From positions 1,667,804 through 1,731,803 of the forward strand of contig OZ245019.1 of the NCBI GenBank assembly GCA_965223815.1: a stretch of 64,000 nt of DNA, read 5' to 3'. The stretch comes from Sedimenticolaceae bacterium (GTDB lineage Bacteria; Pseudomonadota; Gammaproteobacteria; Chromatiales; Chromatiaceae). Below, one piece after another: positions 8,904 through 45,398 of this stretch. The position numbers and the translations under genes are program-made. How positions within the stretch are numbered: position 1 is the stretch's first letter; each line of letters starts with the position of its first letter. The notes below the pieces were generated by a model that was not told the DNA's origin, did no database searches, and saw only the letters and a list, made by a program, of their open reading frames with translations.

Positions 8904-10236
8904 CACTAGTGTCCGGAAAAACCAGACTCACTTATCCATAACTCACTGTCAGTAAAACGATAATATGCCTTTTTTACCTGTCACCGACTTGAACCGGTTC
9001 CCAGCCCTGAGTCAGGCTTTAGCCCGATATCCCGGGTTGGAGCGATCAGTCGATGTACACAGGCAAACTTGTTTTTGCGCAGGCGATGGATCATCTGCCT
9101 ATGCATACCTTCCGACGTTGCATTCAACGCTACGACGGCAACCGACACGTAAAAAGATTCAGTTGCCAGGACCAGTATCGTTGCATGGCATTTGCACAGC
9201 TTACCTATCGAGACAGCCTACGCGATATCGAAGCCTGCCTAAAAGCCCAGAGCAACAAGCTCTACCATATGGGCATTCGCTCCAAAGTGTCCCGCAGCAC
9301 TCTGGCCGACGCCAACGAAAAACGCGATTGGCGCATCTATGCCGATTTCGCTCAGTCACTGATTCAAACAGCTCGGCGACTTTACACAGACGAAAACCTT
9401 GGGCTCGAACTCGACAACACGATCTACGCGCTCGACGCCACTACAATCAATCTCTGCCTCTCTGTTTTTCCATGGGCACATTTCCGGCAGACCAAAGCAG
9501 CAATCAAACTGCATACACTGCTCGACCTGCGTGGCAATATCCCATCGTTTATCCATATCTCCGATGGCAAGCTCCACGACGTCAACGTACTCGACCTGCT
9601 TTTGCCAGAGCCTGGTGCATTCTATGTCATGGACCGAGGCTATCTAGACTTCGAACGGCTGTATCATTTGGAGCAAGACTCCGCCTTCTTCGTCATTCGC
9701 GCAAAGTCCAATCTTCAGTGCCGCCGAATCTATTCGCACGTAGTAGACAAGACTTCCGGCCTACGTTGCGACCAGACAGTAGTGCTCACCGGTTTCTATA
9801 CCGCTCAGCACTATCCCGACAAACTTCGCCGGATCAAGTATTACGATGCCCAAACCGAAAAGCAGTTTGTCTTCCTGACCAACAACTTCAGCCTGCCGGC
9901 ATTGACAATCACAGAACTCTATCGGTACCGCTGGCAGGTGGAACTGTTTTTCAAATGGATAAAACAGCACCTACGCATCAAATCGTTTTTCGGTACCTCG
10001 GAAAACGCCGTCAAGACCCAGGTCTGGATCGCCGTATCCGTATATGTACTCGTCGCTATCATCAAAAAGCGACTCAATATCAAAGCCAGCCTCTATTCAG
10101 TTCTACAGATTTTGAGCCTGACTGTTTTCGAAACAACTCCTATGAATCAGTTGCTTACCGGATGTGAACAGAACATGAAAAACCACGAATCAAATAACCA
10201 ACTGAATCTATTCGATTAATTTTCCGGACACTAGTG
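8904..10236 (+). mobile_element. Complete IS4-family insertion sequence (1333 bp)
   Basis: 17-bp perfect terminal inverted repeats CACTAGTGTCCGGAAAA (8904-8920 and reverse complement 10220-10236). A 9-bp direct target duplication ATTTTTCAT flanks it (8895-8903 and 10237-10245). It has a single transposase ORF. Confidence 0.92.
9053..10219 (+). CDS. IS4-family DDE transposase
   Basis: 388-aa ORF with an N-terminal DUF4372-like region and a DDE_Tnp_1 core (YALDATTI, YVMDRGYLDF, YRYRWQVELFFKWIKQHL). Confidence 0.9.
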   Translation: MYTGKLVFAQAMDHLPMHTFRRCIQRYDGNRHVKRFSCQDQYRCMAFAQLTYRDSLRDIEACLKAQSNKLYHMGIRSKVSRSTLADANEKRDWRIYADFAQSLIQTARRLYTDENLGLELDNTIYALDATTINLCLSVFPWAHFRQTKAAIKLHTLLDLRGNIPSFIHISDGKLHDVNVLDLLLPEPGAFYVMDRGYLDFERLYHLEQDSAFFVIRAKSNLQCRRIYSHVVDKTSGLRCDQTVVLTGFYTAQHYPDKLRRIKYYDAQTEKQFVFLTNNFSLPALTITELYRYRWQVELFFKWIKQHLRIKSFFGTSENAVKTQVWIAVSVYVLVAIIKKRLNIKASLYSVLQILSLTVFETTPMNQLLTGCEQNMKNHESNNQLNLFD

Positions 10237-10871
10237 ATTTTTCATATCGGATCAATATATCTTGGGTTTCTGAGTAGCTCTAGAGAAATATGCTTGTCAT
10301 TGATAATCGGTGCTAATATTTCTATTCTTAATCTCCCGTTGAGCTTAGAGCCATTTATTTTATGGATCCTGCGAGCCGATATGGTCCGGAAGTTCTGCTG
10401 ATCTTTGTTGGATCAAGTAGTGATGCCGAAGAATGTGCCGGTGCCGTTGTCGCATTGGAAAATGAACTTCAGTCACAGCTCGATGTGGCACGACGATTGA
10501 ATTCAGATATTCCTTATACTCGACTCAAAGTCTGGTGCTGGATTAACGATCTTGCCCCGGCAGTGGGAGGACAAGCATCGCTTGTCACACCAGAATTGGA
10601 TCGGGCAGATATTGCTGTTTTTGTTTTTAAGGAGCGTGTGGGTAAGGGGACTTGGGAGGAGCTGACCTATATTCGTAAACAGCGACCGACGATTCCCACA
10701 CTAGTGTTTTTCCCCGAGCAACCTCCAGACTTGGACAAGATTTGTGAATTACAGTTCGCGGAGGAGTGGGTGGAGATGCTGAAGAAAAAGGCAGATCTTA
10801 CTACCAATTGGATGGATCCACTCACGAACTGTGTCTCGCCGCTTCCAAACTATAAGGACAGGGCACACTTA

Positions 10872-11679
10872 GGGCCTGTTAACACTAATTTTGATAAAAT
10901 CATCGGATGAAAATCACATCCGAAGAATTCAAACTCATCAAAGAATTGCTGCCAAAACAAAGGGGTAATGTCACCGTATCGAACCTGCACGTGCTTAACG
11001 CAGTTTTGTATGTAGCGGAACAAGGCTGCAAATGGCGGGCGTTACCGAAGAAATTCGGCAACTGGCACACGATTTATACGCGAATGAACCGATGGGCCAA
11101 GCAAGGTGTTTTGGATGATGTCTTCTCGGAGCTGCAAGCCAACGACATCATCAACATTCAGGTTGAGCATGTTTCAGTAGACAGCACCGCCATGAAAGTG
11201 CATCCAGACGGTACGGGCGCGTTAAAAAAAACGGCCCGCAAGCGATCGGTAAATCGCGAGCCGGATGGACAACTAAGATTCATATGGTAGCGGCGAATGA
11301 AAGGACCGCGGTTACGTTCTCGCTGTCGCCCGGTCAGGCGGGCGATGCGCCGGAAGGCAGAAAACTATTGAAATCCCTTGAGAATCAAGGTTGGGAAGGA
11401 ACTCACGTGATCATGGACCGAGCCTACGAAGGCGACGAGACACTACAGTTGGTGCTGGACCTGGAAATGATTCCGGTAGTGCCTCCCAAGAGCAACCGTC
11501 TGACAAAATGGGACTATGACAAAGCGTTGTACAAAAAGCGCAATGAGGTCGAACGCCTCTTTCGACGGCTAAAAGGTTTTCGCCGAATCTTTTCCCGTTT
11601 CGATAAGTTGGATGTTGTCTTCTTGTTCTTTATTAACTTCGCGTTGATTACCGATACGCTGATTAGTGTTAACAGGCCC
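10872..11679 (+). mobile_element. IS5-family (IS427-group-like) insertion sequence, 808 bp, inserted in the STAND gene
   Basis: 18-bp perfect terminal inverted repeats GGGCCTGTTAACACTAAT (10872-10889 and reverse complement 11662-11679), flanked by a TA duplication (10870-71 and 11680-81) within a TTAG/CTAG-like target. Confidence 0.9.
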
Positions 11680-11682
11680 TAG
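10907..11682 (+). CDS. IS5-family transposase made from orfA/orfB by a programmed -1 frameshift
   Basis: The two overlapping ORFs are 10907-11290 and 11284-11682. Slipping -1 on the A8 run gives ...ALKKNGPQAIGKSR.GWTTKIHMVAA..., the conserved IS5 junction. The DDE C-terminal motif is present (MDRAYEGDE, KRNEVERLFRRLKGFRRIFSRFDK). Confidence 0.85.
11224..11231 (+). promoter_or_regulatory. Slippery A8 tract, the predicted -1 ribosomal frameshift site of the IS5 transposase
   Basis: TTAAAAAAAAC lies in the orfA/orfB overlap region, and only the -1 frame restores the conserved transposase sequence. Confidence 0.7.
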
Positions 11683-14531
11683 AAGAACTGGTGCGAGAAC
11701 GATTGAATGCTGCTTTGGTAGACCGATTGACTGCGTTGACGAGAGCAACAGCACCCAATGTAGGAAGTACCACACTTCGATGGATGCCCTCGGAATTGAA
11801 TTCGCTGCAACCGGCGCCGCACTTCGAAGGACGCAGTAACTTGCTCTCTGAACTCTGTGGTTGGGTGTCATCAAGAGATGATCCGGTGCGAGTTGTGGGG
11901 TTGGTAGCCGCTGGGGGCACCGGAAAGACCGCGCTAATTGAGCGGGTTGTTAGTTCATTTGATAAGTTCCGTGATGCAGGGACATTTATTTGGTCCTTCT
12001 ATGAGGATCCACAGACAGATTCATTTCTACGCTCCGCGTGCGACTATTTCCGACTTACACATAGAGATGGTGGTGGCTTGCTTGAACATCTTCAAAGAGG
12101 CCTAGGTAGCGATGGACCAGCGCATCTGTTTGTTCTTGATGGTCTCGAAGTTATGCAAGCAAGCGGTGTGGGTGGCGAGATTCGCGGCGCTTTGGAGGAT
12201 CCGTTGTTGAAACGTTTTCTCCGTTGGCTTGCATCTGGAAGAGGCACCAACGCTAAGGCCCTGGTTACCACAAGATTCCCCCTGGTCGACCTTAAGGATT
12301 GGGAGAAGAACAGAGGATATCGTGCAATAGAATTAGGTGACTTAGAGGCGACTGCAGCACGAGCTGTATTGCGTAATTGGGGCGTTAAAGGCGATGACCG
12401 GAAGTTGAATAATTTGATCGATCGTGTTCACGGCCACGCCCTCACAGTCGATGTTTTAGGATCTTATCTTAGTACTTTTCACGGGGGCGACCCCTCTAAA
12501 GCACCTAGATTTGACCCAGTTTTTCTGGCGGATACTGACCCCAAAACGGCTAAGTTAGTGTCCATTTTGACAAGCTATGCGGAGAAATTATCAGCCCGGG
12601 AACGAGATCTCATCGCACGGTTATCAATATTTCCGAGAGGTATTAGCGTAGATAACCTTCAAAATATCGCCAATCGTGGTAGCGAGGTGGGTGGGAGCCT
12701 CAGCGGTTGCGACGACGACGATCTCAGAAAGCTGTTGCAACGCCTCGTACAACTCGGTCTGGTCTTCAGATACGAAACAGCGGTTGATGGTATGTTCAGT
12801 GCCCATCCTTTTCTCCGAACGCACTTTTCGAAGTTGCTCGGAAAGCATCCCACTGAATTTCACGCCGCATTGCGTGACATTTTTGCCCAAGGACTTCACG
12901 AGCAGCCTCGTTCGAAACCTCAAGAGCCCAAAGAACTCGACCGCTACGAACGGCTTATCGAAATCACTCGGCTGGCTGGATGGTTACCGCGAGCCTTTGC
13001 CCTTTACAATAATGCTCTTGGGGGTTATCAGCGAATAATTGATTTAGGTGAATCCTCTCGCGGCTTACGAATTGTATCTTCGTTTTCCGAAACGGGTAAT
13101 CCCCGCGATATACCGATATTTAGGGGTATTGAGATATTGCTTCGCGACTGGGGAATATACTCCGAGGTTCTGGGGGATCTATACACTGCTCGCCGTATAA
13201 ACGAGTTGTTGGCAGGACTCAATGGAGAGAGTAACAAACTCAGAAAGGCTATCGAGTGTTGGCTCGCTCTTGCGCGCATATCCCAACTGTCGGGTGCTTG
13301 GCCTGAATCACGCAGGGCCGCTACTACCGCTTTGGAAATCGCACCCCGCTCCAAGACGGAATTTTATCGGGCTCGAGCTCACAGCTACCTAGGAACTGCC
13401 GCGGTTGCGACTGGAAGCCTGGAGGATGCGGTGTGGGAATTTGACGCTGCCGAACAACTGGAAACTGAGCCGCAGCTGGTGGGCCGTGCCGGTTTGGTAC
13501 AGGCTGAAACCAGGCTACAGCAGGGCCAATCAATGGCTGCAGCGAAACAGACTGAAACGAATATCGTTTTTTTGGAAAACTCCAAGATTGGACACAGCGA
13601 TCTGGTTGCCCGGTGCCATGCGCTGTTGGGACGCTGCGTACTACCTGCCAATATTTCAAAGGCACGAGAACACCTGGATAAAGCGTACGAGTATACAAAC
13701 AAGGTTGGTAGCGTAGAGATTGAGCTTCGTTGTCGCCATCTTGCTGCTGAAATAGCACGATATGAAAAAAACTATCCCGCCGCTATCTCCGAAGCAATTG
13801 AAGGTATACAACTTGCCGATTCTCACAAATTCGGAAGGTGGTCTGTCGATCTGCGCCTTGAACTGGCTCAATCCTTTGTTTCATCGAATCAAGAGAGTGG
13901 AGCACTTGAACCGGCAAATTGGGTGATAGAGAATTCGAGACGTCCTGAGTCTCAGTATATCTGGGGAGTTGCAGACGGCCTTCATCTTCTAGGCATGGCT
14001 CTAGCAAAGCATAATAGAGGGAGCCAAAGGGAATCTGCTCGAACTTTTCTGGTTCAAGCAATTGAAATACGCAAGAAGTTGCAGCACCCAAAGCTGGAAG
14101 AAACACTGTCTGCTTTTGATAAAATTAGATAAATACTCAACAAACAAACTCCTCAGGGCAACCTAGTTGATACAGCGCTTGCTGGCATTGAGCTTCGCTA
14201 CCGTACTCTTCGAGAATGCCGTGCAATCCGAGATTTTCTTGAAACTAGACTATATTTTTCGGCATGATGGAAAACCTCCTGTATTGTGCCGATTCCATTA
14301 TGCAAACTCCACAGGCTCAGTAGCTGAGTCTCATCGGTAATCAGGAAGATACTAAACACTATCCTGGTATGCGAGGTCATATATGGCTGAGGACAAGAGT
14401 AAAAATATTTGGCCAATGCTGTGATCCAAGCGTCAAAACTTCCCGTATCGTCTCTTAGGTAAAAACAAAATGTACAGCAAAGCGTAATATGGCTACCTTG
14501 GGGAAGGTGGCCACAATATAGGAGATGGGAA

Positions 14532-30007: not shown

Positions 30008-30872
30008 TCAAAGGCATGTGTCTGCATGCTGACTCTTCACGAGGATGGTGGCAACCGCCGGAACTGCTACCGCAACCATGAAGATATCTCCGTATGAGTC
30101 ACGGTGAGTCAGTTTGCAAATCGCCAACAGCGTAATGACCGCACCGTTATGTGGCAGCGTATCGAATCCCCCAGAGGCCATCGAAGCCACCCGGTGCAGC
30201 AAGTCCGGTGAGTTACCCGCGGTATTGTTCCATGGCGCGCTTGGCGCGAGTGTTGAGCCACAGTATTCCTCCCAGCAGCATGATGAGTCCTCCGATAACA
30301 CCCAGGATGGGTGCGGCGAATGGCGTGGTACCGAAGAAAGGCATTGGGATTGCGTTTTGAATGGCCGGAGTGCCAGGCAGCGCGGTCATGGTGAAGGTGA
30401 ACGCACCTAGCGCGATTGCAGATGGGATGAACCGTTTGGGTACTCCCGCTTCGCGAAACAGGGCTGCGCCAATGGTGTAGACGGCAAATGTCACCACAAA
30501 CAGGGATACGCCACCGTATGTCAGGATGGCGCACAACAGCACGATGGCTAGTATCGCTTGACCCTGTCCCAGTTTTTTCACTATCGCATGGGCAATGGCC
30601 TTGGCAGATCCTGAGTCGTCCATCAGCTTGCCGAAGATGGCACCGAGCAGGAACAGCGGAAAATACTTAATCAGATTTCCCCCAAGGCTGTGCATGAATA
30701 TCTGGGTATAAGTGGCAAGCAGTGGTCCGCCTCCGCTTATGAGAACCGCCAGCAGTGACAGAATCGGGGCCAGTATCAATACGTTTATGCCCCGGTAGGC
30801 GAGGTACATGAGCAGAAACAGGGACAGGACGATACCAAAGACTCCAATCATGGTCGGATTCCCCGTTGGCAA
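30008..30872 (-). pseudogene. GntP-family (hydroxy-acid/gluconate:H+) permease, internally deleted and frameshifted
   Basis: ORF 30213-30872 encodes the N-terminal half (FPLFLLGAIFGKLMDDSGSAKAIA, LTYGGVSLFVVTFAVY, LPGTPAIQN). ORF 30008-30301, in another frame, has only the extreme C-terminal motif GGFDTLPHNGAVITLLAICKLTHRDSYGDI. About 150 aa of the family's ~450 aa are missing. Confidence 0.75.
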
Positions 30873-37712: not shown

Positions 37713-37886
37713 ATGAACAAGGGCTTTTGGATAATCGCGATGGCCTGGCTGTTGAGTAGCCGGGCTCAGGCGCACGTAAGTGACGCCATTGGCATAACCC
37801 ACGGCAGTGAGCACTTGTGGCTGCTGTTGGCGCTGGTAACCGTCGGTGTGGTGCTGGGACCTCTACTAAAGAGTCGCAACGAGTAG
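37713..37886 (+). CDS. 57-aa signal-peptide/TM protein, possibly the N-terminal fragment of a HupE/UreJ-type nickel transporter
   Basis: A GGGAGAG RBS lies 3 nt upstream. The sequence is MNKGFWIIAMAWLLSSRAQA|HVSDAIGITHGSEHLWLLLALVTVGVVLG.... A His-rich start after the signal peptide and the E/D-H-L motif resemble the first ~50 aa of HupE/UreJ. It lies between urtE and ureD. Confidence 0.35.
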   Translation: MNKGFWIIAMAWLLSSRAQAHVSDAIGITHGSEHLWLLLALVTVGVVLGPLLKSRNE

Positions 37887-37897
37887 TGGGCTTACCC

Positions 37898-38728
37898 ATG
37901 ATCCAGACAACGCCGCAAACCGAAGGTTGGTCGGCGCGGCTACGATTGGGATTTCGAACAGGTGCGGGGAAGACCCTGCTGGCGTTGCGAGAAAGAGAGG
38001 GCCCACTTGCGGTACAAAGACCATTCTACCCTGAAGGGGAAACCTGTCATGTCTATCTGCTGCATCCGCCAGGCGGCGTGGTGGGTGGGGATTATCTGCA
38101 GATAGATACCACTCTCGAGGAGGGTAGCAAGGCTCTGATTACTACTCCGGGGGCGACCAAATTCTATCGCAGCGCCGCCAGCCGGGCTCAACAGGTGCAA
38201 CACCTTCGTGTGGAAGATGACGCCAGCCTGGAGTGGTTGCCACAGGAGAATATTTTCTTTCCCGGTGCCGAGGTTGGGCTGCACACACGTGTCGATTTGC
38301 AGGGTGGCGCACGGTTGGCCCTATGGGAGATACACTGCCTGGGACGCCCGGTCATAGCAGAACTTTTCGACGAGGGGCAGGTGGACTCCCGCCTGGAACT
38401 CTGGCGCGATGGAGAACCTTTGCTGCTCGAGCGTTTACGGATAGATGCGCAAAGCTTGCAGCGGATTGCGTTGCTGGGTGGCAGGCCCGTTACAGGCACG
38501 GCCGTGTTCAGCCATGCGGGGGAGTCGCAGCTGCAAGATGTGCGTAGCGAGATCGGATACGAAACCGACGGTGTGATCGGCGCAACCCTGATTGGTGACC
38601 TGCTGATTTTGCGCTACCTAGGTGATTCTACCGAGCAGGCAAAAAAACTATTTACCCACATCTGGAGCCTAGTGCGTGAGCCGTTGCTCAAGCGTTCGGC
38701 AAGCACGCCGCGCATCTGGAAAACTTAG
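37898..38728 (+). CDS. ureD: Urease accessory protein UreD
   Basis: The start was chosen at [11 protein letters not shown]. The sequence is UreD-like ([25 protein letters not shown]), and the gene is first in the ureDABCEFG order. Confidence 0.85.
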
Positions 38729-38739
38729 AGAAAAACGCT

Positions 38740-39042
38740 ATGGAACTGTCACCCAGAGAAAAAGACAAGCTGATGATATTCACCGCCGCTTTGCTTGCCG
38801 AGCGGCGTAAAGCCAAGGGATTGAAATTGAACTACCCCGAGGCGATTGCCCTGATCAGCGCCGAGATAATGGAGGGTGCGCGCGAAGGCAAGAGTGTGGC
38901 CGAACTGATGGATTACGGCCGCAGTCTGCTGGGGCGTGAGGAGGTGATGGAGGGCGTGCCGGAGATGATTCATGACGTGCAGGTTGAAGCCACTTTTCCA
39001 GATGGCACCAAGCTGGTTACCGTTCACGATCCAATTATTTGA
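38740..39042 (+). CDS. ureA: Urease subunit gamma
   Basis: 100-aa ORF with the canonical N-terminus [35 protein letters not shown]. Confidence 0.95.
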
Positions 39043-39054
39043 GGGAGCAGCTCC

Positions 39055-39363
39055 ATGATTCCAGGTGAGGTAATCGTTGCAGAGGGAAAGATCGAACTCA
39101 ATTCAGGGCGCCGGACACTGACTCTATCGGTCGCCAACAAGGGTGATCGTCCGATCCAGGTTGGCTCCCACTACCACTTCTATGAAACCAATCCAGCGCT
39201 CGAGTTCGAGCGTAAGAGAAGCCGTGGTTTTCGACTTAACATCGCAGCGGGTACGGCGGTGCGTTTTGAACCGGGACAGACTAGGGAAGTGGAGCTGGTG
39301 GCTTACGCCGGAGACCGCAGAGTATACGGATTCAATGGCAGAATTATGGGGGAGCTGGATTGA
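39055..39363 (+). CDS. ureB: Urease subunit beta
   Basis: 102-aa ORF with [19 protein letters not shown]...[17 protein letters not shown]. Confidence 0.95.
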
Positions 39364-41078
39364 TGGCGACGATCGACAGACAGGCCTATGCAGAGATGTA
39401 TGGCCCCACCACCGGTGATCGTGTGCGCTTGGCGGATACGCAGCTATTCATCCAGGTCGAGGATGATAAAACGAGCTACGGTGACGAAGTGAAATTTGGC
39501 GGTGGCAAGGTGATACGCGACGGTATGGGTCAGGGACAGGCCTGTGCCGATGAGGTGGTGGACCTGGTAATAACCAATGCTCTGATTCTCGACTGGTGGG
39601 GAATCATCAAGGCGGACGTCGGAATCAAGAACGGCCGTATCTCCGGTATCGGTAAAGCGGGCAATCCGGATGTGCAGCCGGGCGTAGATATTGTGGTGGG
39701 CCCCGGAACTGAAGCGCTAGCCGGAGAGGGACAGATCTTGACCGCCGGCGGTATCGATTCACATATTCACTTTATCTGTCCGCAACAGATCGAAGAGGCG
39801 TTAATGTCGGGTGTGACCACTATGCTCGGTGGGGGCACTGGGCCGGCCACGGGCACCAACGCCACAACTTGTACTCCGGGACCGTGGAATATTCATCGTA
39901 TGCTTGAAGCGGCCGAAGCGCTGCCGATGAACCTCGGTTATCTCGGAAAGGGTAATGCCTCGCTCCCGGAGCCGCTGTTGGAGCAAGTCAATGCGGGTGC
40001 CATCGGGTTAAAACTGCATGAAGACTGGGGTACCACGCCAGCGACCATCGACAACTGCCTGACCGTGGCTGAGAGTGAGGATGTTCAGGTAGCGATCCAT
40101 ACCGATACGCTCAATGAGTCGGGCTTCGTCGAGCATACCCTTGCGGCAATGAAAGGTCGCACCATCCACACCTACCATACCGAGGGTGCCGGCGGTGGCC
40201 ACGCACCTGACATCATCAAGGCAGCAGGCTACCGCCACGTATTGCCGTCTTCGACCAATCCGACGCGCCCCTACACGGTCAACACTGTTGATGAGCATCT
40301 CGATATGCTGATGGTGTGCCATCACCTGTCGCCGTCGATTGCCGAGGACGTGGCCTTCGCGGAGTCCCGTATTCGCCGAGAGACTATTGCCGCCGAGGAT
40401 ATTCTCCATGACCTAGGCGCATTTTCGATGATCGCCTCTGACTCCCAAGCGATGGGGAGGGTTGGCGAAGTCATTATGCGAACTTGGCAGACCGCGCACA
40501 AGATGAAGGTACAGCGCGGCAGTCTGTCGGCTGGCGATAAGGGCGATCCGGCGGAGCATGACAATCTGCGCGCCAAACGTTACATAGCCAAATACACCAT
40601 CAATCCGGCGCTGGCACACGGTATCGCCCATGAGGTGGGCTCGGTGGAGGTTGGCAAACTCGCCGACCTGGTGCTATGGAAACCGGCTTTCTTCGGCACC
40701 AAGCCGAGCCTTATACTCAAGGGTGGCATGATCGCCGCCGCGCCGATGGGAGACCCCAACGCCTCCATTCCCACGCCACAGCCTGCGCATTATCGCTATA
40801 TGTTTGGCGCCCTTGGCGGTGCGCGGGCCGCTACCCGCATGACTTTCCTATCCCAAGCAGGATACAAGGCGGGTGTTCACGAGCGCTTAGGCCTGAAGTC
40901 ACTGCTGGGCGTGGTACAGGATTGCCGCAGCGTCAGCAAGCAGGACATGGTGCTGAACAGTTGGATGCCAACCATTGAAGTCGACTCGCAGACTTACGAA
41001 GTTCGCGCTGATGGCGAATTGCTGAAGTGTGAGCCGGTAGACGAGTTGCCGATGGCGCAACGATACTTCCTGTTCTAA
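39363..41078 (+). CDS. ureC: Urease subunit alpha
   Basis: Nickel-site motifs are present ([33 protein letters not shown]). The ATG overlaps the ureB stop (TGATG). Confidence 0.95.
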
Positions 41079-41089
41079 GGAGGCCCGGT

Positions 41090-41560
41090 ATGTTGCGCAT
41101 AGTCGAACGAATTGACAGCGGCGAACCGGTGGTGACGCTGACCCTGCCGCTGGAGTTGCGCGTTAAAGCCCGGCTGCGAGTTACCCTGGATGACGGCCGC
41201 GATGGGGGCCTGTTCCTCGACCGTGGTCCTATCCTGCGCGGCGGAGACCTGTTGTTGTGCGAGGATGGCAGCGTAGTGCGAGTGGTGGCAGCGGCGGAGT
41301 CGGTTTCTGTAGTTAAGACAGGAAATGCGCTGCTACTGGCGCGAGCTTGTTACCATTTGGGTAATCGCCACACCCCGTTGCAAATCCTTGAGGGTGAAAT
41401 ACGTTACCGGCACGATCACGTGCTCGACGAGATGCTGCAGCTATTGGGAATGAAAGCGGTAGTTGCGCAATTGCCGTTCGAACCTGAATCTGGGGCGTAT
41501 GGCGAACACGGTAGTGATCACGCCTACGGCCATTCCCATGGGCATGCCCATGTTCTCTAA
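41090..41560 (+). CDS. ureE: Urease accessory protein UreE
   Basis: 156-aa ORF with the core LARACYHLGNRHTPLQI and a His-rich C-terminus (HGSDHAYGHSHGHAH). Confidence 0.9.
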   Translation: MLRIVERIDSGEPVVTLTLPLELRVKARLRVTLDDGRDGGLFLDRGPILRGGDLLLCEDGSVVRVVAAAESVSVVKTGNALLLARACYHLGNRHTPLQILEGEIRYRHDHVLDEMLQLLGMKAVVAQLPFEPESGAYGEHGSDHAYGHSHGHAHVL

Positions 41561-42263
41561 TGTCAAGCAGCCGGACGCGTTACATCCCGCCAACTGTCCA
41601 TTGGCACAACTGCGCCTGATGCAGCTGGTCAGTCCGTCTCTGCCCATTGGCGGGTTCACCTATTCTCAGGGATTGGAGTATGCCGTGGAGTCTGGGTGGG
41701 TCGGGGACACGGCCAGCCTCAGAGACTGGCTGCATGGCCTGATAGAAGACAGCGTCGCTTGTCTGGAGATCCCTTTGCTGGCTCGTCTATACCGGGGTTG
41801 TATTTTACAGGACATCGATGCGCTGCATACCTGGGGCCGCTATCTGCTGGCTGCCCGGGAGACGCGGGAACTGCGTCTTGAAGAACAACAGCGCGCGCGC
41901 GCCTTGACCCGTCTGCTGATCGACCTGGGCATTGGCGAGGCGAAACGTTGGCAGCCGGCAATGCATCATTGCCAAACCGCCCCCTATGCGTTAGCGGCTT
42001 CCCAATGGGGAATACTTTTGCCTGAGGCGGCGCTGGGCTTTGCTTGGGCCTGGTTAGAGAACTCCGTAGCCGCGGCGATAAAGCTGGTACCCCTCGGTCA
42101 GACAGACGGACAGCGCATCCTCTTAGAATTGTCCGAAGCCTTGCCGGATGCAGTAGAGCGCGGTTTGGACTTACCTGACGATAAGATCGGAGCATCTGCC
42201 CCCGCGTTGGCGCTAGCCAGTAGTCTGCACGAAACTCAATACACAAGACTTTTCAGGTCCTGA
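41538..42263 (+). CDS. ureF: Urease accessory protein UreF
   Basis: LMQLVSPSLPIGGFTYSQGLEYAVE is the UreF signature. The start is one of three ATGs at 41538, 41544 or 41550. The track start at 41463 overlaps ureE too far to be real. Confidence 0.85.
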   Translation: MGMPMFSNVKQPDALHPANCPLAQLRLMQLVSPSLPIGGFTYSQGLEYAVESGWVGDTASLRDWLHGLIEDSVACLEIPLLARLYRGCILQDIDALHTWGRYLLAARETRELRLEEQQRARALTRLLIDLGIGEAKRWQPAMHHCQTAPYALAASQWGILLPEAALGFAWAWLENSVAAAIKLVPLGQTDGQRILLELSEALPDAVERGLDLPDDKIGASAPALALASSLHETQYTRLFRS

Positions 42264-42266
42264 AAA

Positions 42267-42878
42267 ATGAATAAACCAAAATCACCTGTTCGGATCGGTG
42301 TTGGTGGCCCGGTGGGCTCAGGTAAGACGGCGCTGCTGGAGGCCCTATGTAAGGCCATGCGCGATCGATACGATATCGCTGTTGTGACTAACGATATTTA
42401 CACTCGCGAGGACCAGGAGATTCTAACCCGCGCCAAGGCGTTGCCTGCCGAGCGTATACTCGGAGTAGAGACCGGGGGTTGCCCACATACAGCAATCAGA
42501 GAGGACGCCTCGATGAATCTAGCCGCGGTGGCTGATCTGCAGGAGCGGTTTCCGAATCTGGATGCAGTATTTATCGAGAGCGGAGGGGACAACCTCTCGG
42601 CGACATTCAGCCCCGAGTTGGCTGATTTGATGATTTACGTGATTGACGTTTCCGAAGGCGAAAAGATTCCGCGCAAGGGGGGGCCGGGGATTACCAAATC
42701 CGATCTACTGGTCATTAACAAGATCGACCTGGCTCCTTATGTTGGGGCTTCACTGGCAGTTATGGAGGCCGACACGCGGCGCATGCGTGGCGATCGGCCC
42801 TATGTTATGAGCAATATGAAGCAGGGTGCCGGCGTGGATGAGGTTGTTGAGTTCATCAAGAGGGAGGGGATGTTGTAA
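42267..42878 (+). CDS. ureG: Urease accessory GTPase UreG
   Basis: P-loop [11 protein letters not shown], plus ESGGDNL and the INKIDLAP NKxD motif. Confidence 0.95.
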
Positions 42879-43225
42879 CTGTTTTATTAGTTACATACAG
42901 GTAAAGCAGCGGAGTGGTCCAAATGGAGGAAATTGACCTCGGTGGAATGCCCAAGTGAAAACCCGTTCCAGAGCCCTCTCTTTTACCCAATAGCTTTGGT
43001 AGCACTGCTCGGGGTCGTTGTATCTTGCTCATTTTCTAGATATAGGTAATGCGTCTTCAATTTCATACCAGACCCACAACTGTGGAATCGTTACCACAGC
43101 TGCAACGGCATATTGTCCTGGGTATCCGCGTTAAGTCGTTTATTGGGAAATCTCGGTAGTCGAGTTGGCATCGATTTGTCTCTCAGAAACGATATAATTC
43201 GGTATTACAGAAAGCCTACACTGGC

Positions 43226-44203
43226 TTGATGTGGATAATAGCTAAAAATAAATTCAACGAGTTTACGGTCCGTCCAATCATATCACGCGATACCGGGACT
43301 TCAGTGAACTGCCCGCCAAATGCTAGCATGTCAATTCGGGGAATGGGTTGGGCAGCAGTTTCTAAGACAGCTGGTGTTTTTCATCGGCCGGGGGTGTGCC
43401 GGGTGGCGGATATATTCCTGAGTTATGCGAGAAGAGATGCTACTCAAGCAAGCGGGGTAGTCGCTGCGCTTCAGGGGGAGGGCTGGTCGGTTTTTTGGGA
43501 CAGGGAAATCCCTGTCGGTCAGACTTGGGAAGGCGTGCTAGAGCAACAGTTACAAGATGCATCTTGTGTTGTCGTTTTGTGGTCACCCGCTTCTGTTGAA
43601 TCGGTATGGGTACGGATCGAAGCGAATGAGGCAGCCGAGCGAGGAATACTGATACCGGCTTTGATTGAAGAGACATCCTTACCGCTTCGTTTTAAGGCGA
43701 TTCAATCCGCGAATTTAATCGGCATTGAAGATGATTCGTCACCGGAGGGGCTAAAAAAATTGTTAGACGCTGTTCGCTCTTTGGTGCAAGGAAAAAGGGC
43801 CGTTAAGGGCACACGCAGTCGGCAGTCGACAAAATCTGGGACAGCGACAATCGCGCGTACAATCGCTCGTATATTCATTGAATCTGGTGAGCAGAGGGGT
43901 AAGATTTTCAGGCTGACACGAGATATCAGCAGCATCACTATTGGGCGGGGTCAGGACTGTGACTGGGTATTTCCCGAGGACTTCGAAATTTCCAGAAACC
44001 ATTGCCGCCTGAAAATCGAAACTAAGGAAGTGGGTTCTTCAGCAGGAGAGAATTACGCATTTTCTATAATCGATTCGGGCAGTATGAACGGTACCATCGT
44101 AAATGGAAAGCGAGTCGAGAGAGCGGTTTTGGATGACGGTGATTACTTTCAGCTGGGTAATGTTCGCCTCAGACTTTCCATCGATCACCAAGCACCGGGC
44201 TAG
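43226..44203 (+). CDS. TIR-domain protein fused to a C-terminal FHA domain
   Basis: TIR_2-like motifs are ADIFLSYARRD, GWSVFWDREIPVGQTW, CVVVLWSPASVESVWVRIEANEA and ILIPALIE. FHA motifs are ITIGRGQDCDWVF, ISRNHCRL, GSMNGTIVNGKRV and GDYFQLG. The start is uncertain. 43226 is the maximal ORF, and ATG 43328 or GTG 43403 (GGGGG 9 nt upstream) are more likely. Confidence 0.8.
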   Translation: MMWIIAKNKFNEFTVRPIISRDTGTSVNCPPNASMSIRGMGWAAVSKTAGVFHRPGVCRVADIFLSYARRDATQASGVVAALQGEGWSVFWDREIPVGQTWEGVLEQQLQDASCVVVLWSPASVESVWVRIEANEAAERGILIPALIEETSLPLRFKAIQSANLIGIEDDSSPEGLKKLLDAVRSLVQGKRAVKGTRSRQSTKSGTATIARTIARIFIESGEQRGKIFRLTRDISSITIGRGQDCDWVFPEDFEISRNHCRLKIETKEVGSSAGENYAFSIIDSGSMNGTIVNGKRVERAVLDDGDYFQLGNVRLRLSIDHQAPG

Positions 44204-44510
44204 CTTTCTATAACTTGGTTGCAAAGGCTGGAACTCAAGTCAGGCTTTGTTGGAACTTAGCCGAGTCCCCTTGTCCCCAGCGAGGGCCGAGGAGCTTTAG
44301 ATAATATTTGCTCCAGATCAATACTTGCTTAGTTATAACAGTATAGATAAAAAGGTTTTACTAAATTAGTAAGTAGCCACGGCTGTTTTTCCCTGTTGCA
44401 GGAACTCAGCGTGTTATCCGGTCAGAGGAAGTCAGTTTTCCGCCTCGAGAGTGTACCTTGGTTCCGCGGCGTGGATCAGCTGCCGTAGCCTATTTAGGAG
44501 GAAATCTCAA

Positions 44511-45041
44511 ATGAAAGCAAAAAATGTAACCAGAAAGCTGGCGGTTATTTTCCCGACCCTCATGTTGATGCTTTTAGCAAGTGTATCCTTGCAGGCACAG
44601 ACCGGGGTTCTGATTTGTATCGAGGATATTCCCGGTGATTCAACGATAAGCGGGTATCAGGATTGCATTCTTGCGGATACAGCCAGCATAACCGTTAAGA
44701 GTCAAAAATCACCTTTTTGCAAAGTGACGGCGATCTACAGTATTGGGGTTCACAGCCCTCTGTTGGCGATTCAAGTGATACAACAGAGGGTAATGGAGGG
44801 AGTACGAGTCATATTTTTCAATCACTTGGGTGGGGGAGACCCTGTCGACGTTCCCTATGAATTGGAGCTTAATCGATTTATTGCGAAAAGAGTTACTGCA
44901 GAAGCTGCCGGCGAATCACCCTTTAGGGAGCAGATTACCTGGATACCCCACGAAGAGGCCACTATAGAAATCACGGCGCGTGCTTTTGATAACCAGAACA
45001 ATCTGTCTGGAATTGTCGAAGAGACAATTTTCTGTAACTAA
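44511..45041 (+). CDS. Secreted hypothetical protein with Hcp-like (T6SS tube protein fold) sequence features
   Basis: An AGGAGG RBS lies 9 nt upstream. The Sec signal peptide is MKAKNVTRKLAVIFPTLMLMLLASVSLQA|Q. The mature N-terminus VLICIEDIPGDSTISGYQDCI parallels the Hcp F.KI.GI.GES.D..H...I motif, and the later strand pattern is Hcp-like. This call was made by eye only. Confidence 0.4.
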   Translation: MKAKNVTRKLAVIFPTLMLMLLASVSLQAQTGVLICIEDIPGDSTISGYQDCILADTASITVKSQKSPFCKVTAIYSIGVHSPLLAIQVIQQRVMEGVRVIFFNHLGGGDPVDVPYELELNRFIAKRVTAEAAGESPFREQITWIPHEEATIEITARAFDNQNNLSGIVEETIFCN

Positions 45042-45103
45042 TCGCAGGATCCCGGATTGGTCATTGCGGGAGGTTTCGGTATTTTTCGATGCCGCAGTAT
45101 AAA

Positions 45104-45128
45104 CGGCTCCTTTGGGAGCCGCTTTTTT
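45104..45128 (+). terminator. Rho-independent terminator after the Hcp-like gene
   Basis: CGGCTCC-TTTG-GGAGCCG stem-loop followed by CTTTTTTAG. Confidence 0.75.
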
Positions 45129-45398
45129 AGTTTGATTCGATTCAATGGAGCCCTTTGCTCTACATTCGCTAGTAACCGCCCGGAAGCCCTTTCGGGGAGA
45201 AAACGAGTTGCCATACTTGCAAGCGCCGACCCGAACCTCGGCGAGCATCAATATCTCTTGGATTTTTCTGTGTGCAGAATTCATCTAGCCGGGCCGGAAA
45301 AATACGCGCTAAAGCCCCGAATGGCTAGGGCCCGATCAATTGACATATCTTTATTTGCTTAGCCAATCCAAATCAATATAGCCTCATTGCTACACACT

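What the first reader, a model, noticed from the sequence alone, without database searches (positions are those of the whole stretch)
43226..44203. TIR-FHA fusion: an NADase-type TIR coupled to a phosphothreonine reader
Seen in the sequence: one ORF with a TIR_2-type domain that includes a Glu in the W-x-x-x-E context (SVWVRIEANEA). A Ser/Thr/Arg-rich linker follows (KGTRSRQSTKSGTATIARTIA), then a canonical FHA signature (GR...SRNH...NGT.VNG...GD). Established knowledge: bacterial TIR domains act as NAD+ hydrolases or signal-nucleotide synthases in Thoeris, in some CBASS/Pycsar effectors and in SPARTA, and they are activated by oligomerisation. FHA domains bind pThr peptides. Inference: TIR activity here may be gated by Ser/Thr phosphorylation. 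The partner could be a kinase encoded elsewhere or the protein's own Thr-rich linker acting as a cis ligand. I do not know of a named defence or signalling system with this architecture, and no kinase or phosphatase is encoded in the window.
Basis: partly seen in the sequence, partly recalled or inferred. Interest (0 to 1): 0.7.

Follow-up and report, generated by a model that had tools for sequence, protein, structure and literature searches.

The report
Stand-alone TIR-FHA two-domain protein
A small bacterial protein really does join a TIR domain of the NAD-cleaving type to a phosphothreonine-reading FHA domain; the fusion is rare and unstudied, but no neighbouring gene shows what signal it answers to.

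Summary
One ORF carries TIR_2 (E=1.6e-21) and FHA (E=9.6e-18). The real gene is probably shorter than the ORF: GTG 43403 to 44203, 266 aa, because 19 orthologue clusters all start there.

The TIR glutamate (E132) is invariant in 20 orthologues and 46 wider relatives. It aligns with the Glu of the AbTir and SARM1 W-x-x-x-E motif. The FHA is GarA/OdhI-like. The window protein has all five canonical phosphopeptide-contact residues, but the Asn of "NGT" is absent from every orthologue.

The Ser/Thr-rich linker is specific to this protein, and three orthologues have no linker Thr. A conserved cis phospho-ligand is therefore not supported.

Nine independent lineage groups plus one further contig, and two separate TIR+FHA fusions, share no neighbour gene and have no kinase or PP2C nearby. 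No relative was found in the viral collection, and no curated family or paper covers the protein.

Best reading, by inference: a stand-alone TIR NAD+-cleaving enzyme that the FHA recruits or clusters onto a phosphothreonine target made by a kinase encoded elsewhere. Whether it acts in phage defence or in normal signalling is open. I rate it a new variant of a known kind, of moderate interest.

The parts
43403..44203 (+). Most likely true coding sequence of the TIR-FHA protein (GTG start, 266 aa plus stop)
   Evidence: All 19 orthologue clusters start at the residue aligned to ORF codon 60. Codon 60 is GTG. Orthologue lengths are 252-277 aa.
43226..43402 (+). 5' extension of the mechanical ORF (59 codons, TTG start; the public annotation uses 324 aa), probably untranslated leader
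   Evidence: No orthologue has these residues. P0001, the public 324-aa call, is the only long form.
43390..43394 (+). G-rich Shine-Dalgarno-like run (GGGGG), 8 nt before the GTG start
   Evidence: Read directly from the sequence. By inference only.
43412..43765 (+). TIR domain (ORF aa 63-180; TIR_2)
   Evidence: Pfam E=1.6e-21. TIR-only AlphaFold model has pLDDT 89.7 and pTM 0.86. Foldseek matches to SARM1, AbTir, BtTir, SPARTA and MAL TIRs have TMq 0.7-0.82.
43619..43621 (+). Codon of E132 (E73 of the 266-aa protein), the putative catalytic glutamate in W128-V-R-I-E132
   Evidence: Translation check. Invariant in 20/20 orthologues and 46/46 wider relatives. Aligned to the Glu of AbTir 'DWTNYE' and SARM1 'DWVHKE'.
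43778..43870 (+). Inter-domain linker (ORF aa ~185-215), basic and Ser/Thr-rich in this protein, including T206 in a T-A-T-I context
   Evidence: Modelled pLDDT about 30. Length is conserved and sequence is not; 5 Thr here, 0 in three orthologues.
43880..44185 (+). FHA domain (ORF aa ~219-320; Pfam core 237-311) with G240, R241, S256, R257, H259, N288, T290, N293, G305, D306
   Evidence: Pfam E=9.6e-18. Closest solved relatives are GarA/OdhI/Rv1827 by sequence (E=6e-11) and by fold (TMt 0.83-0.89). Residue table.

Best explanation
The gene encodes a soluble, stand-alone 266-aa protein. It has an N-terminal TIR domain of the NAD+-cleaving type, a flexible linker of about 30 residues, and a C-terminal GarA/OdhI-like FHA domain.

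Proposed mechanism:
1. The FHA docks onto a phosphothreonine epitope on another protein. That epitope is made by a Ser/Thr kinase encoded elsewhere in the host genome, or possibly brought in by an invader.
2. Docking raises the local concentration of the TIR domains so that they self-associate.
3. TIR active sites form between neighbouring subunits, so assembly switches on NAD+ cleavage. The result is either NAD+ depletion or production of an ADP-ribose-derived signal.

Shown here: the domain identities, the conservation of the catalytic Glu and of the phosphate-contacting Arg/Ser, the disordered linker, and the lack of any linked partner gene.

Inferred: NADase activity, phosphothreonine binding, activation by clustering, and the biological role (defence or normal signalling).
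For: - Both domains score well above the Pfam cut-offs.
- E132, W128 and D92 are invariant in 20 orthologues. E is also invariant in 46 relatives with unrelated C-terminal domains.
- The profile alignment puts E132 on the Glu of the AbTir and SARM1 W-x-x-x-E motif. From my own knowledge these are AbTir E208 and SARM1 E642, the catalytic residues.
- The TIR fold is modelled with confidence.
- FHA residues G240, R241, S256, R257 and H259 are invariant, and N288 is present in this protein. These are the Rad53 Gly69/Arg70/Ser85/His88/Asn107 equivalents listed in PMC5549992.
- Solved FHA relatives include two precedents for phospho-tail control: GarA/OdhI, and DgcB, an FHA-GGDEF nucleotide-signalling enzyme whose FHA was solved with a phosphorylated N-terminal peptide.
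- The nearest TIR relatives carry many alternative C-terminal binding domains: DUF4062, TPR, WD40, PDZ, SEL1, FGE-sulfatase. This fits a pattern of TIR effector plus an exchangeable targeting module.
- TIR+FHA fusions arose at least three times and in both orders: this clade, P0243 and P0244.
- Two natural alleles lose the FHA but keep an open TIR frame. A free TIR therefore seems tolerated, which suggests the FHA activates rather than restrains. This is a weak inference.
Against: - No kinase, PP2C or any other conserved partner lies next to the gene in nine independent lineage groups plus the P0004 contig, or next to the two independent fusions.
- The Asn107-equivalent of the FHA is replaced in all 19 orthologue clusters, mostly by Ala. 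Canonical peptide binding may be altered across the family.
- The TIR fold equally resembles non-enzymatic scaffolding TIRs such as MAL, MyD88 and TLRs.
- There is no defence-island context and no hit in the viral collection.
- No enzymatic or binding experiment exists.
Confidence: 0.45

Rival explanations
1. GarA-like self-regulation. A Thr in the protein's own linker is phosphorylated and binds its own FHA (in cis), or the FHA of a neighbouring molecule (head-to-tail). This switches the TIR off or on. It is the first reader's 'cis ligand' idea.
For: The closest solved FHA relatives are GarA/OdhI, and the HMMER alignment runs into the linker. From my own knowledge, phosphorylated N-terminal Thr in those proteins binds the FHA in cis. 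The window protein's linker has 5 Thr, one of them (T206, T-A-T-I) with a hydrophobic +3 residue. The DgcB FHA was solved with its own phosphorylated tail.
Against: No Thr column in the linker is conserved. P0003, P0005 and P0017 have no linker Thr, and only 5 of the 19 orthologues have a T-x-x-[ILVD]. P0014 lacks 13 linker residues. The linker is modelled as disordered with no docking. The NCBIfam OdhI score is 49.5 against a cut-off of 200.
Confidence: 0.1
2. Phosphorylation-independent adaptor. The FHA binds an unphosphorylated partner, as GarA does with its metabolic enzyme targets, and simply tethers the TIR to that partner.
For: The peptide-backbone-contacting Asn is replaced in all 19 orthologue clusters. 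No kinase is linked in any context. GarA was solved bound to KGD, and OdhI to its 2-oxoglutarate dehydrogenase partner.
Against: The phosphate-contacting Arg and Ser (R241, S256) and R257 are invariant, which is hard to explain without a phosphate or an acidic mimic. The window protein itself keeps the Asn.
Confidence: 0.15
3. Non-enzymatic TIR. The TIR acts only as a protein-protein assembly or adaptor module, as in MAL, MyD88 and TLRs, in a phospho-signalling complex and does not cleave NAD+.
For: The top Foldseek match is the MAL TIR filament, and TLR and MyD88 TIRs score like the enzymatic ones.
Against: The Glu, the Trp four residues before it, and the Asp of the VFWD motif are invariant across 20 orthologues, and the Glu across 46 wider relatives. 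By sequence profile the best solved matches are NAD+-cleaving TIRs: BtTir, AbTir and SARM1.
Confidence: 0.1
4. Dedicated anti-phage abortive-infection gene. This is a sub-case of the best explanation: the FHA reads phosphothreonine marks laid down by a phage-encoded kinase, and the TIR then depletes NAD+.
For: Bacterial TIR NADases are frequent defence effectors, and PADLOC matches the TIR to ThsB and SAVED-TIR models. Distribution across phyla is patchy: Desulfobacterales, Dehalococcoidia, Gammaproteobacteria. GC is lower than in the flanks. Inactivated alleles are frequent. Phosphorylation-based defence involving an FHA exists (KKP, PMC11341870). The separate FHA-TIR-TM fusion lies beside a caspase-like peptidase and a TPR-S/cyclase gene.
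Against: Neighbours are mostly housekeeping genes: urease, UvrA, MFS, PilZ, SDR, malate/lactate dehydrogenase, aminotransferase. There is no defence island, no full-length PADLOC model, and no tested phenotype.
Confidence: 0.2

Closest known systems
Bacterial and animal NAD+-cleaving TIR domains (BtTir 7uxr, AbTir 7uwg/7uxu/8g83, SARM1 TIR)
   Same: Best solved sequence matches of the TIR profile (E=1.6e-10 to 1e-6). The W-x-x-x-E motif is aligned residue for residue, and the fold is the same (TMq 0.70-0.78).
   Different: Identity to the query model is only about 18-25%. From my own knowledge, AbTir and BtTir carry N-terminal coiled-coil regions and SARM1 carries ARM-SAM domains. None has an FHA. 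Activity of the present protein is untested.
GarA / OdhI (Rv1827) FHA regulators of actinobacteria
   Same: Closest FHA by sequence (E=6e-11), by NCBIfam and by fold (TMt 0.83-0.89). Both are small proteins with a flexible Thr-bearing segment N-terminal to the FHA.
   Different: The score is far below the OdhI family cut-off (49.5 against 200). There is no conserved phospho-acceptor motif. A 10-residue insertion lies between two FHA strands. The partner domain here is an enzyme-type TIR, not a bare tail. The host phyla are different.
DgcB of Bdellovibrio (FHA-GGDEF diguanylate cyclase, 6hbz/6hc0/6hc1)
   Same: An FHA is fused to a nucleotide-signalling enzyme domain, and that FHA was solved bound to a phosphorylated tail peptide. 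This is the nearest working analogy for phospho-control of an enzyme that needs self-association.
   Different: The enzyme domain (GGDEF, not TIR) and the domain order differ. There is no evidence here for a phosphorylated tail.
Thoeris ThsB and other defence TIRs (TIR-SAVED, TIR-APAZ/SPARTA, retron-TIR)
   Same: TIR-level similarity to PADLOC ThsB and SAVED-TIR models and to NCBIfam ThcB4. SPARTA TIRs are structural neighbours.
   Different: Matches cover the TIR only. All scores are below family cut-offs (ThcB4 42.7 against 220; Pfam ThsB_TIR 20.6 against 21.2). No ThsA, SAVED, APAZ, Argonaute or cyclase partner is nearby.
TIR-plus-variable-domain proteins of 'conflict systems' in multicellular-habit bacteria (Kaur et al. 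2020, PMC7159879; 2021, PMC8195603)
   Same: The same TIR clade is fused to many exchangeable C-terminal modules. Those papers list both TIR and FHA among the effector and adaptor domains of such systems. The window has three TIR genes within 21 kb.
   Different: In those papers FHA and TIR are alternative modules attached to vWA or STAND NTPase proteins, and a two-domain TIR-FHA protein is not described. No NTPase or vWA partner is conserved here.
KKP kinase-kinase-phosphatase module of Pf prophages (PMC11341870)
   Same: A phosphorylation-based toxicity and phage-defence module in which an FHA domain is required.
   Different: In KKP the FHA is fused to a kinase, next to a PP2C phosphatase, in a prophage. 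Here there is no kinase, no phosphatase, no prophage context, and a TIR domain instead.

Membership tests
TIR domain superfamily (Pfam TIR_2, PF13676) | Profile match above the curated cut-off | tested here: met
   77.5 bits against a cut-off of 28, E=1.6e-21, full-length match 1-122/122.
TIR domain superfamily (Pfam TIR_2, PF13676) | Flavodoxin-like TIR fold | tested here: met
   TIR-only model has pLDDT 89.7 and pTM 0.86. Foldseek hits are all TIR domains, TMq up to 0.82.
NAD+-cleaving (enzymatic) TIR domains | Conserved catalytic Glu aligned with the catalytic Glu of characterised enzymes | tested here: met
   E132 is invariant in 20/20 and 46/46 sequences. It is aligned with the Glu of AbTir 'DWTNYE' and SARM1 'DWVHKE'.
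NAD+-cleaving (enzymatic) TIR domains | Measured NAD+ hydrolase or cyclase activity that depends on self-association | not testable with these tools
   Needs a biochemical assay.
FHA domain (Pfam PF00498) | Profile match above the curated cut-off and an FHA beta-sandwich fold | tested here: met
   64.8 bits against a cut-off of 20.7. Foldseek matches to GarA, OdhI and FhaA have TMt 0.83-0.89.
FHA domain (Pfam PF00498) | Five canonical phosphopeptide-site residues (Rad53 Gly69, Arg70, Ser85, His88, Asn107; PMC5549992) | tested here: met
   G240, R241, S256, H259 and N288 are present in the window protein. In the 19 orthologue clusters the Asn is replaced (Ala 14, Thr 2, Ser 2, Pro 1) while the other four are invariant.
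FHA domain (Pfam PF00498) | Phosphothreonine-dependent peptide binding | not testable with these tools
   Needs binding assays.
GarA/OdhI regulators | Family-level profile score (NCBIfam NF041660 equivalog) | tested here: not met
   49.5 bits against a cut-off of 200.
GarA/OdhI regulators | Conserved phospho-acceptor Thr motif N-terminal to the FHA | tested here: not met
   No conserved Thr column in the linker, and three orthologues have none.
Thoeris (ThsB with ThsA effector) | ThsB-type TIR score, plus an adjacent ThsA-type effector gene | tested here: not met
   Pfam ThsB_TIR scores 20.6 against a cut-off of 21.2. NCBIfam ThcB4 scores 42.7 against 220. No SIR2, SLOG or Macro neighbour occurs in the window or in any orthologous locus.
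CBASS/Pycsar TIR effectors and SPARTA | A fused SAVED, cNMP-binding or APAZ sensor domain, plus a neighbouring cyclase or short Argonaute | tested here: not met
   The PADLOC SAVED_TIR match covers only the TIR part, profile positions 13-92 of 404. The C-terminal domain is FHA. No cyclase or Argonaute is nearby.
Operon-encoded kinase/phosphatase-FHA signalling modules (e.g. KKP, T6SS PpkA-Fha1-PppA) | A Hanks-type kinase and/or PP2C phosphatase encoded next to the FHA protein | tested here: not met
   No HRDxKxxN motif occurs in the window or in any TIR-FHA locus. No Pkinase or PP2C Pfam hit occurs among the scanned neighbours.

The most novel reading that the evidence does not exclude
TIR-FHA is a phosphothreonine-triggered NAD+-cleaving switch. 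It would be the first direct wire between Hanks-type Ser/Thr kinase signalling, from the host or from a phage-encoded kinase, and NAD+-derived signalling or NAD+ depletion in bacteria. FHA binding to a multiply phosphorylated target would nucleate the TIR assembly that forms the active site.
Probability: 0.3. Interest if true: 0.7.

Novelty: new variant of a known kind. Interest (0 to 1): 0.45.

Why it matters
The known triggers of bacterial TIR enzymes are protein or nucleic-acid sensors, such as cyclic-nucleotide sensor domains, guide-RNA-loaded Argonautes and phage-protein recognition. None is a phosphorylation reader. A TIR switched on by phosphothreonine docking would add protein phosphorylation as an input to NAD+-based signalling or cell-suicide pathways. 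It would also parallel eukaryotic immune signalling, where TIR assemblies and kinase cascades are coupled. The protein is small, soluble and single-gene, so the idea is cheap to test. At present, though, it rests only on domain identity and residue conservation.

Tried and rejected
- Conserved partner gene. All-against-all BLASTP of neighbours across nine dereplicated lineage groups found only generic ABC-ATPase and short-chain dehydrogenase families. Rejected.
- Kinase nearby. A six-frame HRDxKxxN screen and Pfam scans found none. The single motif hit (L103) is an FHA-only locus, not TIR-FHA.
- 'Two matched stretches' in the 1.84-billion-protein search, which I first took for many TIR+FHA families. 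They are tandem TIR-TIR proteins, and only 2 of 42 carry FHA.
- L062 (Caldimonas), reported as covering residues 60-325. It is TIR plus a membrane segment plus an unrelated C-terminus, not TIR-FHA.
- Phage origin. No relative was found in the viral contig collection.
- Mobile-element borders. No meaningful direct or inverted repeats flank the low-GC segment. The promoter and terminator scan found no more sites than shuffled sequence gives.
- Named family. NCBIfam and PADLOC give only sub-threshold, single-domain matches.
- Source organism. The genome-collection scan did not return the window's own genome, the exact-protein look-up found no contig on record, and cluster look-up gave no names or accessions. 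The organism remains unidentified; the protein comes from one 5.0-Mb contig held by NCBI and ENA.
- Literature. No paper in the library contains 'TIR-FHA' or 'FHA-TIR', or combines forkhead-associated, TIR, NADase and phage.
Full report
OBSERVATION

The ORF 43226..44203 (+) exists. It carries a TIR_2 domain at aa 63-180 (E=1.6e-21, 77.5 bits against a cut-off of 28). It also carries an FHA domain at aa 237-311 (E=9.6e-18, 64.8 bits against a cut-off of 20.7).

The mechanical ORF is probably too long. The 19 orthologue clusters that share the full architecture (44-51% identity) are 252-277 aa. All begin at the residue aligned to codon 60. Codon 60 is GTG at 43403, with a GGGGG run 8 nt upstream. 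The public annotation (P0001, 324 aa, on a 5,007,418-bp contig held by NCBI and ENA) uses the long form. I take the CDS as 43403..44203, 266 aa.

THE TIR DOMAIN

W128, E132 and D92 are invariant in all 20 family members. The Glu is also invariant in 46 relatives with unrelated C-terminal domains.

A profile of the TIR region finds solved NAD+-cleaving TIRs as its best sequence matches. These are BtTir 7uxr (E=1.6e-10), AbTir (6e-8) and SARM1 (1e-6). The family's W-V-R-x-E lines up with AbTir 'DWTNYE' and SARM1 'DWVHKE'. From my own knowledge those glutamates, AbTir E208 and SARM1 E642, are the catalytic residues.

A TIR-only AlphaFold model is confident (pLDDT 89.7, pTM 0.86). Its structural neighbours are all TIR domains, but they include both enzymes (SARM1, AbTir, SPARTA) and scaffolds (MAL, MyD88, TLRs). 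Fold alone therefore does not show enzymatic function. That argument rests on the invariant Glu, Trp and Asp.

THE FHA DOMAIN

The closest solved relatives are GarA/OdhI/Rv1827. This holds by sequence (E=6e-11) and by fold (TMt 0.83-0.89).

PMC5549992 names five residues as critical in Rad53 FHA1: Gly69, Arg70, Ser85, His88 and Asn107. They correspond here to G240, R241, S256, H259 and N288. The Ser-to-Asn spacing is 32, or 22 once the 10-residue insertion relative to GarA is removed. All five are present in the window protein.

Across the family G, R, S and H (and R257) are invariant. The Asn is found only in the window protein. The 19 orthologue clusters have Ala (14), Thr (2), Ser (2) or Pro (1). 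The phosphate-contacting residues are therefore conserved.

THE LINKER

The full-length model gives pLDDT of about 30 for residues 131-150 of the 266-aa protein. Linker length is 30-34 residues in 19 of 20 members, and P0014 has a 13-residue deletion.

The linker sequence is not conserved. The window protein has 5 Thr and 9 Arg+Lys with no acidic residue. The orthologues are mixed-charge, and three of them (P0003, P0005, P0017) have no Thr at all. Only T206 (T-A-T-I) in the window protein has a hydrophobic +3 residue, and no Thr column is shared. FHA domains read phosphothreonine, so a conserved cis ligand in the linker is not supported for the family. It remains possible for this one protein.

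CONTEXT

In the window the gene lies between the urease operon (ureDABCEFG, 37817-42878) and a small predicted secreted protein with no family match. Further downstream are an endonuclease/exonuclease/phosphatase-family gene, a PLD-DedA fusion, a hemerythrin and a 164-aa stand-alone TIR gene. No kinase or PP2C phosphatase occurs among the window ORFs scanned. No HRDxKxxN motif occurs in any frame.

The gene and its downstream neighbour have lower GC (0.50 and 0.46) than the flanking operons (0.54-0.57). No flanking repeats were found.

Orthologous loci were collected from exact-protein look-ups, a genome scan and a metagenome scan with an FHA-only alignment. After dereplication there are nine independent lineage groups, plus one further contig (P0004).

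Their neighbours include:
- a Metallophos-STAND NTPase, a sulfatase and PNPOx;
- a GMC oxidoreductase;
- an MFS transporter and UvrA on one side, with two PilZ genes on the other;
- glyoxalases, an ankyrin-repeat protein and a LysM protein;
- another TIR gene;
- SDR, HAD, aminotransferase, MarC, and malate/lactate dehydrogenase genes.

No family recurs apart from generic ABC-ATPase and SDR families, and no kinase motif is present. The family was found in MAGs of Desulfobacterales, Dehalococcoidia and Gammaproteobacteria. It was not found in the viral contig collection.

FAMILY SIZE AND RECURRENCE

A profile search was run over 1.84 billion representative proteins. In it the tight clade collapses to two representatives plus fragments. 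Most high scorers with two matched stretches are tandem TIR-TIR proteins.

Two further proteins combine the domains independently. P0243 is TIR-FHA (339 aa). P0244 is FHA-TIR followed by a hydrophobic C-terminal region (491 aa). P0244 lies next to a caspase-like peptidase and a TPR-S/guanylate-cyclase gene, which looks like a conflict-system neighbourhood, again without a kinase.

The combination therefore arose at least three times and in both orders, but it is rare. More divergent examples below the top 150 hits cannot be excluded.

DECAYED ALLELES

Three lineages carry disrupted copies:
- an in-frame stop at the start of the FHA, seen in four samples (L093-L096);
- a 1-nt insertion in the linker relative to a 99.9%-identical intact allele (L088/L089 against L086);
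- a multiply damaged copy (L098/L099 and L025).

In the first two lineages the TIR reading frame survives without the FHA. This suggests that a free TIR is tolerated and that the FHA is needed to activate rather than to restrain. That inference is weak, because loss of expression is equally possible.

MECHANISM

The best-supported reading is a stand-alone TIR NAD+-cleaving enzyme targeted by a phosphothreonine reader. The FHA would dock on a phosphorylated protein made by a kinase encoded elsewhere. Docking on a multivalent or clustered target would bring TIR domains together. From established knowledge of SARM1, AbTir, SPARTA and plant TIRs, self-association forms the active site.

Working analogies among solved FHA proteins are DgcB (FHA-GGDEF, solved with a phosphorylated tail) and GarA/OdhI. 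The nearest TIR relatives carry many alternative C-terminal binding modules. That fits a TIR effector with exchangeable targeting domains, the theme described by Kaur et al. (PMC7159879, PMC8195603). Those papers do not describe a two-domain TIR-FHA protein.

I put this mechanism at about 0.45. Whether the role is phage defence (about 0.2, as a sub-case) or ordinary signalling is open, because the gene context is mostly housekeeping. The rivals are:
- self-regulation through the linker (0.1);
- a phosphorylation-independent FHA adaptor (0.15), favoured by the missing Asn in the orthologues;
- a non-enzymatic TIR (0.1), disfavoured by the invariant Glu.

COMPARISON AND NOVELTY

The protein passes the membership tests for the TIR and FHA superfamilies and for the Glu-bearing enzymatic TIR class.

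It fails the tests for:
- GarA/OdhI (49.5 against 200 bits; no conserved acceptor Thr);
- Thoeris ThsB (below both cut-offs; no ThsA);
- CBASS, Pycsar and SPARTA effectors (no sensor domain or partner);
- operon-encoded kinase-FHA modules such as KKP (PMC11341870).

No curated family, defence-system model or paper in the searchable library covers the architecture. Automatic pipelines do label orthologues 'TIR domain/FHA domain'.

I rate it a new variant of a known kind: a bacterial TIR effector with a fused targeting domain, where the new feature is a phosphorylation reader as the input module. Interest is moderate at 0.45. The idea is clean and testable, but it rests on domain identity alone. 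The family is small, and no context supports the proposed trigger.

Noticed in passing
window 49496-49990 (-): A second TIR gene, a 164-aa stand-alone TIR_2 protein (E=2.6e-25). It is 45% identical to the TIR of TIR-FHA, keeps the W-V-x-x-E Glu, and lies 5.3 kb downstream on the opposite strand. It has sub-threshold matches to Thoeris ThcB4, retron-TIR and Argonaute-associated TIR models.
   Followed up: partly
window 62401-63816 (+) and 59851-61725 (-): A third TIR gene (471 aa; TIR_2 E=7.6e-12, Glu retained) with a C-terminal region of about 290 aa that has no family match. It is divergently oriented from a 624-aa protein that also has no Pfam or NCBIfam match (only a marginal LmuB hit, E=8e-4). 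That makes three TIR genes within 21 kb.
   Followed up: partly
window 43226-43402: The public gene call (324 aa) and the mechanical ORF (325 aa) start about 59 codons upstream of the conserved start. The orthologues indicate a GTG start at 43403.
   Followed up: yes
window 42879-45398: A segment of about 2.5 kb with lower GC than its flanks. It holds TIR-FHA (GC 0.50) and a 196-aa predicted secreted protein with no family match (GC 0.46), between ureG (operon GC 0.57) and an EEP-family gene (0.54). This may be an acquired insert, but no flanking repeats were found.
   Followed up: partly
window 39516-39798 (-): Rfam hit to '5_ureB_sRNA' (107 bits, E=3.6e-27), antisense inside the urease alpha-subunit gene. 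It may only reflect conservation of the urease coding sequence rather than a real antisense RNA in this organism.
   Followed up: no
window 8965-14132: A low-GC3 block of genes with no family match (400 aa, 182 aa), an IS element (DUF4096 plus DDE transposase, 10907-11682), and an 813-aa MalT-like TPR protein directly after it. The IS may have split a larger gene or may mark an island.
   Followed up: no
L093-L096, L088/L089, L098/L099, L025: Naturally disrupted TIR-FHA alleles in three lineages: a nonsense codon at the start of the FHA (four samples), a 1-nt insertion in the linker, and a multiply damaged copy. In the first two lineages an open TIR frame is left without the FHA. One further allele (P0014/L090) has an in-frame 13-residue linker deletion.
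   Followed up: yes
L166 6881-8356 (P0244) and neighbours: An independent FHA-TIR fusion with a hydrophobic C-terminal region (491 aa). It lies divergent from a caspase-like Peptidase_C14-SH3 gene. Downstream are an abutting 504-aa protein with no family match and then a TPR-S/guanylate-cyclase gene. This looks like a conflict-system neighbourhood.
   Followed up: partly
proteins P0123-P0238: Many of the closest relatives of this TIR clade are tandem TIR-TIR proteins. Others carry FGE-sulfatase, pentapeptide, trypsin, PEGA, DUF4062, TPR, WD40, PDZ or SEL1 domains. The TIR module is highly promiscuous.
   Followed up: partly
window 50207-54403 (+): A 1398-aa protein that combines CheB methylesterase, CheR methyltransferase, PAS domains, GGDEF and EAL in a single chain.
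   Followed up: no
window 30213-30872 (-): A 219-aa ORF that matches only the first third or so of the GntP permease profile (positions 7-161 of 440). It may be a truncated gene remnant.
   Followed up: no
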